Shown piece by piece: positions 3,001-61,291 of a DNA stretch of 64,000 nucleotides. How positions within the stretch are numbered: the first letter of the stretch is position 1; every line of letters begins with the position of its first letter. The DNA lies in NCBI GenBank assembly GCA_023213395.1, contig CM041465.1, positions 145,831,741 to 145,895,740 on the forward strand, in the 5' to 3' direction. The notes under the pieces were generated by a model. That model made no database searches. It had not been told where the DNA came from and worked only from the letters and a program-made list of their open reading frames with translations. The DNA comes from Cycas panzhihuaensis. Lineage: Eukaryota > Plantae > Cycadophyta. The translations under genes and the position numbers were made by a program.

Positions 3001-3191
3001 TTGCGTGAGCCCAGGTTCAATCTGGACATAAAGGCATCTTCAAATTTTGAGGAGTCTTCATATCTCTTATTTCTTTGTTCCTATCTCAACAGTAATCTCG
3101 TCAATTCATCAAGTGTTATTTTATTTATTTTTTCAGTATTTATAATGGTGTTGATGGTTGTATTGAAAGACTTTGGGAGCTTGGCTGTTAT

Positions 3192-3559
3192 TGTTGGAAT
3201 GAGAGGATATAAGTTGGAGACATGTCATAAAGCACATGTGAGAAAGTGCACAAGAGATGACAATACGACAATGACTCACAACTCTCCAAATCTCATTAAG
3301 AAAATATGTAAGGTACAAATACATATTTATAGTTTTACACTATGTCTAAACATAGGAGTTGGTTTAACAAACTCCATGATTTTTGGTGTGCTCAAACTAC
3401 CTCATTAATAGTTGAGCATCTTTGACTTCTAGAACCTTTGACCAGGAATCTTCTCTCACTAGAATATTCTCATCTAGAATATTCCATGTGAGGAATTATT
3501 CTAATGAAATGAAATGAACTTAAATGAACATGTAAATGGGAATGTACATTATTCCAACA
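3192..3559 (-). repeat. 3' LTR of the 3192-6907 element
   Basis: TGTTGGAAT..ATTCCAACA with 9-bp inverted termini; direct repeat of 6540-6907. Confidence 0.97.
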
Positions 3560-3900
3560 CCCCTCCATAATGTTAAGTTCATTTCTTTACATAAACATCA
3601 GTGTCCTAAGTCTCTCAATAATTTTCTCACAACTTAAAGTCTAAGTGAGAATACAACTTGAGGGACAATACATCAACTTAACTATGCCATGCTCCATATC
3701 TTTGTCGAGCAGAATCTTGGTAATCTTCCACAAGCTTGAACTCGCATGGAACTCCAATTCTTCGATAGTTGGAAGGCATATTGTTGTAGTAGAACAACTG
3801 AAGAAGTCAAAAGAAGTCGATTAAGCCCACAATGGCTTTTCTAATGTTGTAATTGCTGCTTTGCATACCGTCTTGGTGGAATAAGCTATCCACATCAAGT

Positions 3901-4145
3901 GATCAACCAGAATTAGGTGCTATGCACATTCTGTCGTTGATTTGGCCTTCAACTGCTACAAGAGATCAACCAGAATCCAGTGGTCTTATGCACATCCTGT
4001 CGTTGATTTGGATCAACCAGAACCAAGTGTCATCCACATCCTGTCGTTGAATTGACTCAACCAGAACTTAAGTGGTCAAATGCACATCCTGTCGTTGATT
4101 ATGATCAACCAGAATTTAGTGACATCCACATCCTGTCGTTGATTT
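3901..4145. repeat. Five-unit tandem array (ATCAACCAGAA-variable-CACATCCTGTCGTTGAT)
   Basis: Read directly. Units are ~44-50 bp, and each has ATCAAC/GTTGAT inverted ends. Confidence 0.9.
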
Positions 4146-5039
4146 GCCTTTGCAGTTGCCATTACAAAGCTCCCAAAGAGGATTTCATCGTCCTCATGCA
4201 GTACATACTAGTTGTGATCATCAATGCGTGAAAACACGCTCATTGTCCTGCTTCTCCAAATGTCATAATCTTGGTATACAATATCGTGCTCCATTTTATG
4301 CACTATTGTCATTTTCAAGACATTGTTGTTTCATAGAATTGTTAGGTGTTTTCAATAACACCACAACACTGCAATTATCATCACCATTACAATAAGCTGC
4401 AATAGTAAGCTACCTAACTCATAAATAAAGAGGTTAAGGTAGTCTACAAAGGTATGATAAATATCATGCATGTTGTTACACTACAATTCAACAACATAAG
4501 TTACTTGTCTCTTTCAGTTTCTGCACATAGAGACTTGACATTTTCCAAGAGTAAGCAAGTATTAAGACTCTAATATATCATTAAGAGTCATTCTGCATCA
4601 TATGCAAGCAAATAAGATGAGCAATCTTCTCATCAACCACTAGCAAATTGATGAACGCTAGTGTTCCAGGTTCCCGTTTTGCCAAGTCATGTCGTGTCAT
4701 ATCATGTCGTATGACACCATGTTGTGATATATTGTGCCGCACTATGTTGCCTTTAATTGGGTCTGATTAAGCTTCCTGTCTTCTCCTTCAACAACTCCCA
4801 TAGGTCTTTGTAAGACTGGAAAGTGTTTCATTGCATAGGACTTACATTTTGTCTTAGTGAATCTAGCAAATTTTAGCTAGTTATTCACAGACATTTTATG
4901 AAGTCTGTAATTAAGAAATTAAGGAGAAAGTGTTTTAAATCACCGCGAGTATGAGTGCCACATCACTCAGTGACCGCAAGGTGAATTACACTTAATGAGA
5001 GTACAAATAAAGGTTGAAAACACCTTTTAAATACATCAA

Positions 5040-5715
5040 TAAAGAGGAATAAGTACATTAAAAGGTCCTCTCAAAGTGCTTTAAAGGAGGACTAAGTACA
5101 TTAAAAACTCCCCTTAAAATTTTTCTCCTAGTACATTGAAAAATCCCTCTAAAATTAGAGTCAAAGTATAACTCTGAAGAGGATAAAGTACTTGAGAAAA
5201 TATTCATAAAGTACTCCTTACATTGAAGCCAAAAATTACCTTTAAAAGAAGACAAACTTCTTAAGGTATTATGCCCTTGAACATGTCGCCAAAGGTGCAC
5301 TATCTTGTCACCAAAAGATGCTTTAAAAAACAAGAGGATAAACCGCCTTTATAATCCTCTTAAAGCATCTGTATGCCACCAATAACAGCCTTTTAAAGAG
5401 GATAAATTACATTAAGATCCTCTTATATGCTTGCCACAAGTACTCTTTTGAGCCTCCAATATGTACCTTAAAAAAGAGGATTTAATGTGTCAACAAAACC
5501 TCTTAAGGTACTTTTCATGTCCGCCAAAAAATATCTCTTTAAAAGAGATAAAATACATATCAAAAAGGTCCTCTTAAAATGCCCTTTATGTTACCAAAGG
5601 ATATACCTTAATGAAGAGGATAAATTATATAAAAAAAAATCCTCTTAAGGATCCTTTACACTGCCATAAAATACCCTTAAAGAAGATTAATACATAGTAC
5701 ACATTAATCTCCTTA
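5040..5715. repeat. Degenerate AT-rich array of AAGAGGAT..ATCCTCTT stem-loop units
   Basis: The motif recurs, e.g. AAGAGGATAAACCGCCTTTATAATCCTCTT, AAGAGGATAAATTACATTAAGATCCTCTT and AAGAGGATAAATTATATAAAAAAAAATCCTCTT. Confidence 0.75.
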
Positions 5716-6115
5716 ATATATCTCCTTAATGAATTGTTAAAATCTTAACTTATAAGGAAATATTTGATATTAAAAAAAGTATATTCCTTAGAATATACTA
5801 ATGTTCATATTCTAAGGTTGTAAACATCAATTAAAAGGAATAAAAATTGATGATTTCTTGGCCGGCGATTATTTTTCCGTAGATGGCACTTTAGGCGACT
5901 TCTGGTTGACGGTCGGCGGCGGCTCCAACCGGACGGTCGGGCGGCGGCGGCGGCTCGGCGACCGACAACGGGCGGCGGCGTTCTCCGGCGGCTGGCGTTT
6001 GGGCGGCGGCGGGCCGAAGCTTCTCGGCGGTGACGACGGCGACTAGCGGGAGGCGGCAGGTCTGCACGGCGGGCCGAAGCTTCTCGGCGGCTCCTCGTCG
6101 GGCTACGGCGGCGCA

Positions 6116-6199
6116 GAACGTCCCTTTGCGGGGGCTTTCCCTAGGTGGCGAACAATCGACTCAGAACTGGTATAGACTAAGGGAATCCGACTGTTTAAT
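6116..6199 (+). rRNA. Short non-functional fragment of nuclear 25S/26S rRNA embedded in an LTR element
   Basis: GAACAATCGACTCAGAACTGGTATAGACTAAGGGAATCCGACTGTTTAAT matches, with a few substitutions, the conserved plant LSU motif GAACAGTCGACTCAGAACTGGTACGGACAAGGGGAATCCGACTGTTTAATT (recognised from memory). It is preceded by GAACGTCCCTTTGCGGGGGCTTTCCC, which resembles the end of the D8/ES27L segment. Confidence 0.88.
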
Positions 6200-6539
6200 G
6201 GTGCATACAAGAGTGAATAGGTGCAGTGAACAATTCTATTCACTGAGAATTTCTCATTTACACACAGCTGTATCACATAAAGAGGCCAGTTCAGGACAGA
6301 ACCTAGTACTCAAGTATGGACAGGAATTAAATGTCAAGAACCTGGGAAATATGCATGGACATCAGTGTAGGACAGAACCTAGCACTAAGATATGGACAAA
6401 ATTTGTCATTAGATTTCAGCATAGAGCTGTTAGAAATCTAGGACAGCCATCTTAAAACAGAATCTAGCACACATACATGGCAGAAATCAGAGACACACAT
6501 GGTAGAACTCAAGTGTCAAAAACCTAAGCTCTGATACCA

Positions 6540-6907
6540 TGTTGGAATGAGAGGATATAAGTTGGAGACATGTCATAAAGCACATGTGAGAAAGTGCACA
6601 AGAGATGACAATACGACAATGACTCACAACTCTCCAAATCTCATTAAGAAAATATGTAAGGTACAAATACATATTTATAGTTTTACACTATGTCTAAACA
6701 TAGGAGTTGGTTCAACAAACTCCATGATTTTTGGTGTGCTCAAACTACCTCATTAATAGTTGAGCATCTTTGACTTCTAGAACCTTTGACCAGGAATCTT
6801 CTCTCACTAGAATATTCTCATCTAGAATATTCCATGTGAGGAATTATTCTAATGAAATGAAATGAACTTAAATGAACATGTAAATGGGAATGTACATTAT
6901 TCCAACA
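6540..6907 (-). repeat. 5' LTR of the 3192-6907 element
   Basis: Direct repeat of 3192-3559, adjacent to the PBS. Confidence 0.97.
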
Positions 6908-8043
6908 GTTATTAGTTCTACCAGCGCTTGTTCAGAAATCAAACCTCCTGCACTTGACAAATTATTCCCTATTGAAACAACCTTGTGCATAAAATCTGTT
7001 ACATTTTCATTTTCCTTCATATGCAGCCTATACAGTTCTTCCTTGAGAGCAATTATTCTTGCTTTATTTTTACATCCATACAGTTCTCAAGACATTTCCA
7101 AATGTCGGGAGGACAAATTCAGCTTTTCAACATATATCAGAATTGAGTCAGAAATCGACATTTTCAAAATGTGCACACCTATATTGTTTCTTTCTTCCTA
7201 GTTGGCCAGCTTAGCATCTGAGTCCTTTGGACAAGTCTCAGTCCCAATTGTAATATTCCAAGCATTTTTTATTTTTAAGACAGTTTCTACCTTAATTTTC
7301 CAAACATGATAATTTGAATTAGTCAATTTTTCTGATTCTGGCAGAGAAAAAAGACTTGAAGCCATTTTGACAACTGAGATATTGAGAGAGAGTGCAGACC
7401 GTACACGGTACGGATTTTCGTACGGAATTGAATTTGTACAGAATTGTACGAAATGTACCTCGAAAGAGAGGTTATGAGATGAGGATCCCGGATCTGGTAT
7501 TACTTTTCCAAAACAGTTTACGGATGAGGAGAAAATCGACCTGAAAGACTGGAAAACGTAGTTAGGGTAAAACATGTTTTTGTTTGTAATTTGAAAAATA
7601 CTTCATAGAATTCCTCAAAGTCTGTCACAAAACTTTTGTAGTACCCAGACACTGAGTTTACAACAGATTTGATTCAGGAATTTTGAAAAATTTGGAAGAA
7701 ATTTACTAAAGTACCTCCAAACCCACGCGACTGATAAAGGGGCAAAACTCACATCAAAACTTCTTCAAATGACTTCGATCCTGAAGGAAAAGTTGAAGAG
7801 GAGGTCAAGATCTACTTGCTGGCCAAATTTCAGCTCAATCTAAGAAGGTTGAATTTTCTGGTCCGTACAACGACCGTACGGTACTTCATGTTGTCTTCAG
7901 GTCTACTTCTGGACGTGCTGGATCCTTCACCTCACTTTCAATTTGTCTCCTGTGTTGCAGGCTTCCTTGTCTCTCTTAGAACAGACTCTATTACACACAA
8001 AGGACCCTCTCTCAAGCAAGTAGGATGCTCTGCTCTCATACCA

Positions 8044-8261
8044 TGTTAGAAAACTGACTTGGACAAAAAAGAAGATCAGAACTTGTTATTACATGGAGTC
8101 TCATTCCTCTTAAATACACATCACTGAGATGACCGTTACAAAATAGAAATGTAATTGACCTACATGAGGCTGCCAAGTGTCACAATTCCTATTTGGAGTT
8201 ACATTTAAGGGGTGAGTCAACATGACCCCTCTTTGTCTAGATAAAACATTACATTTTAACA
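8044..8261 (-). repeat. 5' LTR of Copia family A (218 bp)
   Basis: TG..CA ends next to the PBS. It shares AAGTGTCACAA and ACATTACATT.TAACA with the LTRs at 45758-45988 and 50676-50908. Confidence 0.9.
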
Positions 8262-8367
8262 TTGACTTTCGTCTAAACTGTTGGAATCGTTGTTCAGAGA
8301 CCTTTGATTTGAATGGTCATATGCTATACTTTTAACCATATTTTGGAATGCTACAATTCCCCGCCCC

Positions 8368-10649
8368 TTAGAATAATACTTTGCCCTCGAAGTAATTGCT
8401 TGTAGCTCTGTCAAATCTTCGACCACCTCCTGCTAGATCTTGTAGGTCATGAAAATTTGGCTCGATCTTGCATCTTCTTTGGAGCTTTGCTAGCAGACAT
8501 TTGGCATTTGTCAATGTTTGTTCCTGTAGCCAGGTACATGCTATATCTACATCAGGGGGATCTTGGGACCTGCGAGGTGTCTCAGTTGCTGTGCCCTGGT
8601 CTTGCCTTGTGTTTGCACATTTTGTTTTCAAATGAAATGGTTTATGGAAGGAGAAGAATTGATCATAAGGGTCATAGATTGGCGATTGCTTATTGTGAAA
8701 AGGAAAAGAAAAGGTGGAATTATTGTTGACTTAGGGGGTATCTTATTACACTTACAAGATACCTCTTTCACTTGTCAAGGTTACACAGTGCTATAGTCTA
8801 GTTCAGGATACTGTCAACATGGTTATTCACATACATTCCACATATATTTTACAGAATTACACCACAATGGTATACAGCAGTACAGAAATCAATACATACT
8901 CAGCAATTCATCAGCACAACACAAGGAATACACCACTTTCCACGTAACTCTTCATTTTATTAAGTAATCAAGTCAATTTACACAGAGGCTGGAATGCATT
9001 CCTGAGCATTCCAAAGTGACATACATTCATACATTACATATGCGTGCCGGATGGTACTTATCATACAATCTGCTCCAACGGGTGTCATACGTCTTTGGCT
9101 CCTGCACCTTTGCGTACCTTTGATAGTCGGCTCTCACCCTCGAGAGTATACAATAGGATTGAATCACTCGGCTCTCACACTGGAATGGTCCTCAAAGCAC
9201 CATTAAATATGTCCCTTTGATGCCTTTTGGATGAAAGGTTATGACCCAAAGTCATAACTATACCTTTTTGTCACCAAGGTACCCTTTCACTTTAACACTT
9301 GATTAAGTCTCCTTAATGGTGTCTTTTCTGATCCGTACATCCGTACTTATGTCCTTTTGGGCTGACGTCATCATTTCTGGGTGCCTTTGGGTCAGATCTG
9401 TCCATATGTACCTTACTGTCTGCATGCATTCCGAAAAGGTACGTATCTGGTACACATCTGTCATATGTACCAAGATTACATATTTTTCACCTTTTCCCAT
9501 TATGCGTACCTCCGTACAGTCCGTACTTGCATTCCTTTGGTCAATACAAGCCTGTATTCTGTCTTCCTCAAGGCCTATGTGTCACAATATGTCCCAACAA
9601 TTATGAGCTAAGATTAAGCATAGCTTTGAAGGTACAGGAAGAAGGGATAAATTTTGAAATCTACCTTGGATGGAGATGAAAATTTGTGCAAGTTTTGTTA
9701 GACCACAACACTTTTTGGGGGAGAGAGAGAGATAGGGAATCAACGATATATGTTCTTTATGAAAGAAATATTTTAACAGGTTTTTAGGAATGGTATTTAA
9801 ACAAAAGGAAATATTTAACGAGAAAATATAATATTGATGATATGAAACTAAAGGACTTTGGGAAAAGTTGAATAGGGTTTTGTAAAGGGTAATACTAAGA
9901 GGCGAAACCTGACGAAGAGATTGAAGTTGAAGGGTGTCCTGTTGAGGATTGTTTATAGGGGTTGAAGGAGTAGGTGAGTAAAGAGATGGACTAGGGTTAC
10001 AGAGAGGAATTAGAATTTGACCTACGAAAAAACTAAGGTTAGAAAAATTAGGAGCATGGCTAACTATGGGTTGAGGAGAGAAGGGATTTTGTATTGCTAT
10101 TGAACTAGGGAAAGAGAGAGCACATACAGAACTACTGAACAAAATGTGCATGTGTAATGCAGGATCATTGGGTACCTTGCATGAGATTTGTCGAGAAAAA
10201 TCTGCTTGTTCTTCATTGTCTTTGTATTGCTCCTGTGTAACTTTACCTTGGATTTCTTCTCTGATATTGAAATGAGACTCTTCTGTGGCTTGTGCATGCT
10301 CCAAGTCTTCTATGTCGTCATATTGTTTTCTTTGGGCTACATCTCGTTCTAGTACTTGCAAAACCTCTATGATCTCCTCATCAATAATGTCTTCTTCTTG
10401 CCCTTCCTCATCTACTTGAAGCTCACCTTGCTTATGTTCTTTAAAAGCTATGGTAGCTGCCTCTAAAAATTGGTACCATAGAAAAGGTTCTTTAGCCCAA
10501 TTAATGAACCACTCATAAGCTTGTCCATTTAGTATCATTTCTAATAATGGTCCATATTCTTCCATTTCTGTGTCGGACGTAAACTCAAAATCTTCTATAC
10601 ATTTTTTCATGCTCCCATAATCCTCCAAATTAAAAAAATCTGTCTCCAT
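8368..10649 (-). pseudogene. Family B ORF (Gag-like N-terminus + acidic + Pro/Ser/Phe-rich + Pol-tail), disrupted only by a solo LTR
   Basis: ORFs 9582-10649 and 8368-8631 join in frame (..LAHN|STFSFPFHNKQ..PFHLKTKCANT..FEGKVLF*) once 8724-9604 is removed. ILNGQAYEWF..PFLWYQF resembles the Gypsy Gag L.G.A..W..W..F motif. Confidence 0.8.
8724..9599. mobile_element. Solo LTR (876 bp)
   Basis: TGTTG..CAACA termini and TSD ATTAT (8719-8723, 9600-9604). The empty site is visible in the second family B copy near 59610. Confidence 0.92.
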
Positions 10650-58662: not shown

Positions 58663-61291
58663 TGTAGCAACCTTACAAAATTCTTCTAATAGATTTTATA
58701 GAAATAGACAAAATATCCACCAAATGCACTTGCAAAATATCCAATCAAGAGAGCAATAATACAAATCCACTTGAATACAAATATAAAATGGTATGAAATG
58801 AATATAAAGTAAATAGATATAACGTTACCAAAAGATCCCACAAATTACTGATGATAAAGAATCCCTCTTCAAGGCGAGGTTCCCTCCACAAAGCTCCTCA
58901 AAAGGGCCGAAAATACTGTAGTCCAAGACCTCTTCTTCGATGATCCAAAATGATTCTGCAAATCCTCCTTAAATAGACAGCCGAAAGATAGTAATAGAAG
59001 TTGGCGAGAAAAGGAGAATAAACCTGCCCAAAACTAATACTAGAAGTCGGCCATAACTCCTCCAAAAATTAATAGGCTGAAAACTTTAAATAGTCATAAG
59101 TTTTGATATGGACGTCAGAATTAAGTTTCGTCTAGACCGTTGGAATCGTCGTTGAGAGAGCTTTGATTTGAATGGTCACATGATATACTTTTGACCATAT
59201 TTTGGAATGCTACAATTCCCCTCCCCTTAAAATAATACTTTGCCCTCGAAGTATTGAGAAATGCTTGTAGCTCGGTCTAATCTTTCAACCACCTCCTGCT
59301 AGATCCTGTAGGTCATGAAGATTTGCCTCGATCTTGTGTCTTCTTTAGGGCTACACTGGCAAGCATCTTGAATTTGTTGATGTTTGTTCTTGGGACCAGG
59401 TACCTGCGACGCCTTATTCTGAATTGAAAAGATCCTGGGACTTGTGAGGTATCTCAAATGTCTTGTCTTGGTTTTGCCTTGCATTTGCACCTTTTATTTC
59501 CAAATGGGATGGATTTTGGAAAAAGACATAAAGGCTTTGGGAACAAAATTGATTATGAGGGTCAAGGATTGATGATTGCCTATTGTAGGAAAAAGAAATG
59601 GAGGACTTGTGAACTAAGATCAAGCATAGCTTTGAAGGTATAGAAAGAAAGGATAAAATTTGGAATATGTCTTGGACGGAGATGTAAGTTCGTATAAGTT
59701 TTGTTGAACCATAACTCTTTTTAGGAGAGAAAGATGGATGGGGGATTAGTGATAGAGGTTCTTTATGAAAAAAAGATTTTAATAGGGTTGTAGAATTGGT
59801 ATTCAAGTAAAAGAAAAGATTTAATGGAAAAAGACAATATTGATAATATGGAATTGAAGAGGCATGAAAAAAATTAGACTGGGTTTTATAAGAGATAATA
59901 TTAAGAGGTGAAACCTGACAAACAGATTGAAGTTGAAGGGTGTCTTGTTGATGATTGTTTATAGGGGTTGAAGGAGTAGGTGAGTAAAGAGATGGACTAG
60001 GGTTACCGAGAGGAATTATAATTTGACTTATGAAAAAACTAAGGTTAGGAAAATTAGGAGCATGGCTAACTATAGGTTGAGGAGAGAAGGGCTCTTGTAT
60101 TACTATTGAACTAGGAAAAGAGTGAGGATATACAAAACTACCGAACAAAATGTGCATGTGCAATGCAGGATCACTGGGTACCTTACATGAGATTTGTTGA
60201 GAAAAATCTGCTTGTTCTTCATTATCTTTATACTGCTCTTGTGTAACTTCACCTTGGATTTCCTCTTTGATATTGAAATTAGACTCTTCTGTTGCTTGTG
60301 CATGCTCCAAGTCTTCTACGTCGTTATATTATTTTCTCTGGGCTAGATCTCATTCTAGCACTTAAAAAACCTCTAGGATCTCCTCATCAATAATGTCTTC
60401 TTCTTGCCCTTCCTCATTTGCTTGAACCTCACCCTGCTTATGTTCTTTAAATGCTGTGGTAGCCGCCTCTAAAAATTGGTACCATAGAAAAGGTTCTTTA
60501 GCCCAATTAATGAACCACTCATAAGCTCGTCCATTTAATATCATTTCTAATAATGGTCCATATTCTTCCATTTTTGTATCAGACGTAAACTCAAAATCTT
60601 CTATCCATATTTTCATGCCCTCATAATCCTCCAAATTAAAAAAATCTGTCTCCATTTTTTTCTCAAGCTTTATATGTTCCACGTGTTCATTTCATGTTCT
60701 ACTTTGCCCTTTCCCTTCGAAACGAAGCTCTGATACCACTTGTAGTAACCTTACAAAATTCTTCTAATAGATTTTATAGAAATAGACAAAATATCCACCA
60801 AATGCACTTGCAAAATATCCAATCAAGAGAGCAATAACATAAATCCACTTGAATACAAATATAAAATGGTATGAAATGAATATAAAGCAAATAGATACAA
60901 CGTTACCAAAAGATCCCACAAATTACTGACGATAAAGAATCCCTCTTCGAGGCGAGGTTCCTCCACAAAGCTCCTTAAAAGGGCCGAAAATACTGCAGTC
61001 CAAGACCTCTTCTTCGATGATCCAAAATGATTCCGTAAATCCTCCTTAAATAGATGGCCGAAAGATAGTAATAGAAGTCAGCCAGAAAAGGGAAATAAAC
61101 CTGCCCAAAACTAATACTAGAAGTCGGCCAGAACTCCTCCAAAAACTAATAGACTGAAAACTTTAAATAGTCACAATTTTTGATATAGACGTCGGAATTA
61201 AGTTTCATCTAGACCGTTGGAATCGTCGTTCAGAGAGCTTTGATTTGAATGGTCATATGCTATACTTTTGACCATATTTTGGAATGCTATA
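58663..61291 (-). mobile_element. Non-autonomous Gypsy-derived gag-only element, family B copy 2
   Basis: LTRs 58663-59214 and 60741-61291, PBS 60727-60738 and PPT (ATTCCCCTCCCC on +). The internal region is collinear with 8356-10733 minus the solo LTR. Confidence 0.95.
59227..60682 (-). pseudogene. Family B ORF, copy 2 (nonsense mutations)
   Basis: ORFs 60362-60682 and 59414-60310 are in the same frame, separated by CAA>TAA and CGA>TGA stops. The protein aligns by eye to 9582-10649. Confidence 0.85.

What the first reader, a model, noticed from the sequence alone, without database searches (positions are those of the whole stretch)
6116..6199. A 25S/26S rRNA segment carried, antisense, in the leader of a recently transposed LTR element
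Seen: ~84 bp matching the LSU rRNA region from the end of D8/ES27L into the conserved GACTCAGAACTGG..GGGAATCCGACTGTTTAAT core. It lies ~330 bp inside the PBS and is antisense to the element's transcript. Against the remembered plant consensus it has several substitutions (TATAGACTAAGGG vs TACGGACAAGGGG), while the LTRs differ at about one site. The capture therefore probably predates this insertion and was propagated with the element. Established: Cassandra TRIMs carry 5S rRNA in their LTRs. I do not know of a described plant LTR family with internal LSU rRNA cargo. Inference: it is either a neutral relic of capture or a retained module. A retained module might pair the element RNA with 60S rRNA next to the solvent-exposed ES27L, for example to reach ribosomes making helper Gag/Pol, or interact with rRNA-derived small RNAs.
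Basis: partly seen in the sequence, partly recalled or inferred. Interest (0 to 1): 0.8.

Follow-up and report, generated by a model that had tools for sequence, protein, structure and literature searches.

The report
Dead rDNA scrap inside one retrotransposon
A 90-base piece of the plant large-subunit ribosomal RNA gene really sits backwards inside a young, non-coding jumping element, but related elements in other organisms carry different sequence at that spot and the piece bears decay-type mutations, so it is likely a one-off DNA-repair patch copied from a dead ribosomal gene copy rather than a working module.

Summary
Observation confirmed and extended: window 6110-6199 (90 bp) is 26S rDNA (71/84 to real plant LSU loci, E 6e-19). 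It lies antisense, 329 bp inside the PBS of a 3,716-bp non-coding LTR element (LTRs 367/368 identical, TSD GTTAT) nested in a copia gag.

The functional reading is not supported. In contigs of related organisms, the right flank aligns from 6197 and runs on upstream as non-rRNA sequence (X7, X9; X2 by depth), sharing only AAT with the rRNA. The left flank runs on past 6100 as GC-rich non-rRNA sequence (X2). The fragment differs from host-lineage rDNA at 6 of 90 sites, 5 of them C>T/G>A. These genomes hold many decayed rDNA copies with that spectrum, while the adjoining GC block keeps 44 CpGs. So the changes likely arose in the donor and do not date the capture.

Best reading: filler DNA at a deletion or fusion junction, neutral (0.6). 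The window's own genome was not available, so a species-specific passenger subfamily is not excluded. The scan's earlier notes hold no look-alike of this stretch. Low interest.

The parts
6110..6199 (+). 90-bp fragment of 25S/26S rDNA (end of D8/ES27L hairpin plus conserved core, about Rfam RF02543 positions 2090-2146 for the 3' part), rRNA-sense on +, antisense to the element RNA; 6 differences from host-lineage rDNA (6146, 6155, 6173, 6174, 6178, 6180)
6197..6199 (+). 3-nt microhomology (AAT) shared by the rRNA and by the native flank at the PBS-side junction
   Evidence: X7 record 20 and X9 record 28 align from 6197 with 43 and 40 unaligned letters upstream; one search shows the rRNA ends ...TTTAAT then continues differently
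6101..6109 (+). 9 nt at the other junction that match neither the rDNA-like contigs (start 6110) nor the flank contigs (end 6096-6100)
6540..6907 (-). 5' LTR (368 bp, TG...CA)
6528..6539 (-). primer-binding site TGGTATCAGAGC (initiator-Met type; label recalled)
6200..6527 (-). native leader with three 76-85-bp subrepeats, no CpG
5860..6109 (.). GC-rich block (72% GC, 44 CpG, o/e 1.38) with an internal 24-bp duplication; pieces occur in related organisms
4900..5859 (.). AT-rich block with degenerate subrepeats; origin unknown
3900..4151 (.). 44/92-bp tandem repeat array
3560..3570 (-). polypurine tract (..ATGGAGGGG) next to the 3' LTR; a possible decayed RNase H end lies beside it (by eye only, not confirmed)
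   Evidence: searches gave no significant hit
3192..3559 (-). 3' LTR (368 bp)
3187..3191 (.). target-site duplication GTTAT (other copy 6908-6912), interrupting gag of an older copia element (gag pieces 6910-7602, protease 2199-2807, integrase 1245-2009)

Best explanation
The 90-bp piece is 26S rDNA sequence lying antisense in the leader of a non-coding LTR retrotransposon, and it was likely copied once, at the DNA level, from an already decayed rDNA copy as filler during repair of a break, leaving a likely functionless scar. SHOWN: identity, orientation and boundaries; non-rRNA sequence at both junction positions in related elements; a 3-nt AAT overlap at one junction; 5 of 6 changes are C>T or G>A; decayed rDNA with the same changes is abundant in related genomes. 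[quoted passage not shown] Also inferred: the changes predate capture, and the piece does nothing. NOT SETTLED: whether this happened in this copy or in a recent parent, so whether a few sister copies exist in the same genome.
For: (1) Empty state: X7 record 20 (aligned 6197-6247, 43 loose non-rRNA letters upstream) and X9 record 28 (aligned 6197-6273, 40 unaligned letters upstream) start at the same base in two organisms. X2's depth step (5.41 = 3/10 of 18) implies the same start. X2 record 2 aligns to 6100 and runs on for 73 GC-rich non-rRNA letters. The fragment therefore replaces native sequence rather than sitting between preserved flanks; no joint skipping it cleanly is among the 15 of 28 joints listed. 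(2) Spectrum: 5 of 6 differences are C>T/G>A (p 0.0013 against a uniform model, which overstates it because transitions are favoured anyway), 4 of 6 at CG/CHG. (3) Donor pool: rDNA-like contigs over 6141-6169 in X1, X2 and X4 carry frequent C>T/G>A variants at CG and CHG sites (for example 6149 C>T 5,147 of 20,034 and 6158 G>A 3,290 of 8,063 in X1), and the window's own T6146 and A6155 states leave about 25% and 14% of X1 depth unchanged. (4) The adjoining GC block keeps 44 CpGs (o/e 1.38), so it has not shared the fragment's decay (3 of 17 CG-context sites hit). (5) Antisense orientation does not fit the usual minus-strand template switch onto a co-packaged RNA, which gives sense inserts (established retroviral knowledge, recalled). 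(6) Filler DNA primed on short homology at deletions is a known plant repair outcome (PMC7156093, passages).
Against: CG/CHG enrichment alone is not significant (p 0.12). A 3-nt overlap arises by chance a few percent of the time, and the other junction has 9 unexplained nt. The two empty-state contigs have depth 4.76 and 3, under the tool's error caution of 5, although they agree on the base. It is not shown that the GC block and the right flank are neighbours in relatives, so they may be different elements. Filler templates are more often in cis (PMC7156093) and no rDNA lies elsewhere in the 64 kb. The donor copy itself was not found. No listed run holds half of the element's words (best 0.46), so the window's own species is probably untested.
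Confidence: 0.6

Rival explanations
1. Older neutral capture in an ancestral element, by reverse-transcriptase template switching (during plus-strand synthesis onto rRNA, or onto an antisense or read-through transcript of an rDNA copy) or by DNA repair, with the six changes accumulating while a minor sublineage carried it as a passenger.
For: rRNA is the most abundant cellular RNA (established knowledge); template switching uses short microsimilarity (PMC5131818, search listing and passages on strand only). The changes cannot postdate this insertion. Methylated elements decay with the same C>T/G>A spectrum.
Against: Antisense orientation needs the rarer route. The neighbouring GC block shows no CpG loss. 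Related elements in 3 organisms carry non-rRNA sequence at the PBS-side junction.
Confidence: 0.3
2. Retained functional module: the antisense piece pairs the element RNA with 25S/26S rRNA or pre-rRNA, or yields or absorbs rRNA-type small RNAs, to the element's benefit.
For: The element-strand RNA can still pair with naked LSU rRNA in silico (-132.9 kcal/mol against L004, perfect complement -219.6). It sits in the leader near the PBS of a recently mobile element. Cassandra shows that rDNA modules can be selected (PMC10946416 section 11).
Against: Not fixed in related elements. Three of six changes give true mismatches and three give G-U wobbles, so there is no bias to keep pairing (from the sites). 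The 3' half maps on paired core helices of the Rfam structure, which are buried in mature 60S (established knowledge). The element encodes nothing to translate. The review itself expects most rDNA modules not to benefit the TE.
Confidence: 0.04
3. Assembly artefact (chimeric join of an rDNA-like read into the element).
For: No read-level confirmation of either junction was obtainable.
Against: The piece is short, carries six private changes, and overlaps the native flank by a microhomology; both LTRs and the TSD are intact.
Confidence: 0.04

Closest known systems
Filler DNA at plant double-strand-break junctions (NHEJ / SD-MMEJ; summarised in PMC7156093, passages read)
   Same: Short ectopic insert at a junction where native sequence is lost, with a few nt of microhomology.
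   Different: The template here would be in trans (an rDNA copy); the break and the donor are inferred, not observed.
TE-captured host fragments in large plant genomes (PMC13477047, abstract and passages: about 400,000 captured coding fragments per gymnosperm genome)
   Same: A host sequence fragment inside a TE, mostly one fragment per element, by DNA- or RNA-mediated capture.
   Different: That survey counts exons; here the cargo is rDNA.
Pseudogenised rDNA (Cycas revoluta about 50% of 45S copies; C>T from methylcytosine deamination; PMC10462631 passages)
   Same: Same mutation spectrum, and a large decayed rDNA pool in the related organisms laid here.
   Different: Host lineage was not determined; the Cycas paper itself was not held.
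Cassandra TRIM / Ajax (5S rDNA in LTRs; PMC10946416 section 11)
   Same: Non-autonomous LTR element holding rRNA-gene sequence.
   Different: Cassandra carries 5S in both LTRs, family-wide, keeps a Pol III promoter and co-evolves with host 5S. This is LSU, internal, antisense, promoter-less, decayed and absent from related elements.
SINE28 (28S-derived SINE) and Pokey (IGS-derived internal repeats) (listed in PMC10946416 Table 2); 28S rRNA/LINE-1 chimeras (PMC13174262, search listing only)
   Same: TEs that contain LSU-unit sequence.
   Different: Animal non-LTR or DNA elements. SINE28 and Pokey are family-level features; this one is not shown to be.

Membership tests
Eukaryotic LSU rRNA (RF02543) fragment | Significant similarity to bona fide LSU rDNA beyond chance | tested here: met
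   the direct Rfam score is below gathering because of length
Non-autonomous LTR retrotransposon | Paired TG..CA LTRs, 5-bp TSD, PBS, PPT | tested here: met
Non-autonomous LTR retrotransposon | No intact gag/pol inside | tested here: met
   (0 families for the 4 internal frames given)
Ty1/copia derivation of the element | RNase H remnant next to the PPT (copia domain order) | tested here: inconclusive
   resembles a decayed RNase H end by eye (motif recalled); Pfam, tblastn and phmmer gave no significant hit
Cassandra TRIM | 5S rRNA / Pol III promoter sequence within both LTRs | tested here: not met
   no Rfam match in 4000-10000 or the window; the rRNA piece is LSU and internal
Cassandra TRIM | rDNA module fixed across the family and across species | tested here: not met
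   related elements carry non-rRNA sequence at the site; own genome untested
TRIM (miniature) | Total length under about 1.5 kb (threshold recalled) | tested here: not met
   3,716 bp
Filler DNA (SD-MMEJ) | Microhomology at the junction | tested here: met
   3 nt AAT at the PBS-side junction; none established at the other junction
Filler DNA (SD-MMEJ) | Loss of native sequence at the junction | tested here: inconclusive
   both flanks continue with other sequence in relatives, but no contig joins the two flanks
Filler DNA (SD-MMEJ) | Identifiable donor template in the same genome | not testable with these tools
   no genome held

The most novel reading that the evidence does not exclude
A young subfamily confined to this host species carries the antisense 26S segment in every copy and uses it: the first plant LTR lineage with a selected large-subunit rRNA module, pairing element RNA with ES27L or pre-rRNA, or feeding rDNA-directed small RNAs. 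The evidence does not exclude it because the host's own genome could not be searched. A weaker version (a multi-copy neutral passenger subfamily) is perhaps 0.3 likely and worth about 0.3.
Probability: 0.04. Interest if true: 0.7.

Novelty: new member of a known kind. Interest (0 to 1): 0.15.

Why it matters
As found, it is a small example of how rDNA debris spreads into transposons in large plant genomes. It also warns that substitutions in a captured piece do not date the capture when decayed donors abound. No plant LTR family with LSU cargo is listed in the 2024 review (PMC10946416 Table 2) or turned up in searches, so a family-level case would be new; a single scar is not. If a selected antisense-rRNA module existed, it would be a new way for a non-coding element to engage ribosomes or rDNA silencing.

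Tried and rejected
Own-genome search: no genome held, so family copies in the host could not be collected.

Rfam: no hit on 6 kb or the window; snoTBR5, mir-204 and Guanidine-III matches at E 0.6-2.7 rejected as chance.

Pattern scan of viral contigs: 0. Metagenome and genome scans returned only true rDNA (1 and 8 loci), no element-borne copy.

Sequencing runs: 22 listed, 20 hold part of the element, none half of its words; no RNA holder listed, which is no evidence on expression. I laid 5 of 22 runs (X1, X2, X4, X7 at 80% likeness; X2, X4, X7, X9 at 95%). No listed piece bridges either junction. At 95%, depth is 0 at 6180-6189 in 4 of 4 runs and no piece passes 6101-6109. These holes prove nothing by themselves: only 32 of 4,927 and 28 of 740 pieces are shown, about half of the large runs was read, human-like records are filtered, and a diverged bridging piece under 90 nt could be hidden at 80%. 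Depth differences between the flank (5-52) and the PBS-near leader (hundreds to thousands) are not copy numbers and were not used as such. Flank identity to other organisms (9 differences in 439 nt over 9 pieces) is biased by the 95% filter and was not used as a conservation test.

Host lineage: integrase of the host copia gave only 41-59% identity hits among the 120 listed, with named ones from a fern, gymnosperm-type ids, orchids and Rosaceae; undetermined.

ORF readings across the fragment (181 aa and 111 aa stop-to-stop frames): no Pfam family; rejected as GC-rich chance frames.

GC and AT blocks as rDNA spacer: considered; they lack the rDNA-level depth in relatives and do not hit the rDNA loci; not supported, not excluded.

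RNase H remnant not confirmed. PMC2206039 passages were irrelevant; PMC5023732 not held; PMC5131818 passages did not state insert orientation. Earlier-finding look-ups by sequence, by place and by the full word set returned nothing.

Full report
1. Observation. The stretch is real LSU rDNA. With no host genome available, I fetched true rDNA with a pattern from the fragment's 3' half: 1 metagenome locus and 8 eukaryotic rDNA contigs lying in prokaryote assemblies, all 9 scoring as Rfam RF02543. BLASTN of the whole window against them hits only 6116-6199 or sub-ranges, best 71/84, E 5.6e-19. The 5' part that was not in the pattern also matches (0 of 5000 shuffles). Direct Rfam scans are weak or blank because the piece is short. 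Contigs from related organisms align from 6110 to 6199 and continue on both sides as rRNA, so the piece is 90 bp.

2. Setting. The host element spans 3192-6907 on the minus strand: 368-bp LTRs with one mismatch, TSD GTTAT, PBS at 6539-6528 and a PPT. It interrupts gag of an older copia element. Its 2,980-bp interior has no recognisable coding sequence and is a mosaic: a CpG-free native leader (6200-6527), the rRNA piece, a 72% GC block with 44 CpGs (5860-6109), an AT-rich subrepeat block and a 44/92-bp tandem array. The piece is antisense to the element RNA, as reported.

3. Is it a family feature? Twenty public runs from 13 coded organisms hold part of the element, none half of its words. I laid 5 runs of 5 organisms. 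At 95% likeness, flank contigs in X7 and X9 align from exactly 6197 and carry 43 and 40 other letters upstream; the 30 letters shown for X7 are not rRNA. X2's depth implies the same start, and X4's two pieces begin at 6200 at their own ends, which is uninformative. On the other side an X2 contig aligns to 6100 and runs on for 73 GC-rich letters. So related elements have a fragment-free state at both junction positions. The three bases 6197-6199 (AAT) belong equally to the rRNA and to the native flank. No listed piece bridges a junction, but the listings are cut and filtered, so that absence is not used as evidence. The two empty-state contigs are of low depth (4.76 and 3). The window's own species is probably not among the runs.

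4. Mutation pattern. Against the majority of host-lineage contigs (table 3 for 6141-6169, loose ends for 6173-6180, confirmed by L004) the piece differs at six sites: 6146, 6155, 6173, 6174, 6178 and 6180. Positions 6142-6143 and 6148 differ from L004 but lie in the range where variants are listed and none is, so they are host-lineage states. The stretch 6110-6140 is taken as unchanged from deep cover at 95%. Five of six changes are C>T or G>A; four are at CG/CHG (not significant alone, p 0.12). Six in 90 against one in 368 between LTRs (p 3e-4) shows the changes predate this insertion. But X1, X2 and X4 hold very many rDNA-like contigs with C>T/G>A variants at the same kinds of site, including the window's states at 6146 and 6155, and the GC block next door has lost no CpGs. 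The simplest reading is that the donor was already decayed. Large pseudogene fractions of rDNA with this spectrum are known in plants (PMC10462631, passages).

5. Mechanism. Best (0.6): filler DNA. A break in the leader likely primed on a dead rDNA copy through AAT, copied about 90 nt, and was joined to the GC block with loss of native sequence, as described for plant end joining (PMC7156093, passages). The antisense orientation fits DNA-level capture better than the usual reverse-transcriptase switch onto co-packaged RNA, which gives sense inserts (recalled). Rival (0.3): older neutral capture with decay in a minor sublineage. Rival (0.04): selected module. Pairing with naked rRNA is still possible in silico (-132.9 kcal/mol), but the 3' half lies on paired core helices, the changes do not favour wobble pairs, and relatives lack it. 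Rival (0.04): mis-assembly.

6. Known context. The 2024 review of rDNA-TE interplay (PMC10946416; outline, passages and all of section 11 read) lists only 5S/Cassandra for plant TEs, SINE28 and Pokey IGS repeats for the large unit, and expects most rDNA modules not to benefit the element. TE capture of host fragments is very common in large plant genomes (PMC13477047, abstract and passages). Searches found no plant LTR family with LSU cargo; the library lacks most subscription papers and no supplements were read. It fails the Cassandra tests. The scan's earlier notes on rRNA pieces with retroelements concern animal LINE, R2 and Tx1 cases (8 of 20 shown, unchecked) and none resembles this stretch.

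7. Verdict. Real observation, likely a neutral scar; a new member of a known kind; interest 0.15. The open door is a host-specific carrier subfamily, which a search of the host assembly would settle at once.

Noticed in passing
runs X1, X2, X4 laid on window:6110-6199; X9: These related organisms hold a very large and diverse pool of decayed 26S rDNA copies with C>T/G>A changes at CG and CHG sites (dozens to over 100 distinct contigs per site), recalling the pseudogene-rich rDNA reported for Cycas.
   Followed up: partly
window:22595-27466: A second very young LTR element on the + strand: about 220-bp LTRs identical over 218 bp, TSD GAACC, Met-type PBS and PPT, with the 5' LTR starting TA instead of TG; no stop-to-stop frame of 200 aa inside.
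   Followed up: no
window:5860-6109: GC-rich block (72% GC, CpG o/e 1.38) inside an otherwise CpG-depleted element, with an exact 24-bp duplication (6007, 6067); pieces occur in other organisms in varied arrangement. Either protected from methylation or recently acquired.
   Followed up: partly
window:5030-5690: AT-rich block with a purine-rich 8-mer and its reverse complement recurring at about 40-90-bp spacing (7 of 13 window occurrences lie here), able to form small hairpins; origin unknown.
   Followed up: no
window:5767-5810: A 20-bp-arm hairpin with a 4-nt loop that has much higher depth in related organisms (up to about 560) than its surroundings, possibly the end of another repeat.
   Followed up: no
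window:9582-10655 and 59414-60328: Two related stop-to-stop frames of 357 and 304 aa (87% DNA identity over 1.1 kb) just inside the PBS of two related LTR elements; not scanned against families.
   Followed up: no
L002-L009: Eight GTDB prokaryote assemblies contain short contigs of eukaryotic (plant-like) LSU rDNA, i.e. contamination.
   Followed up: no
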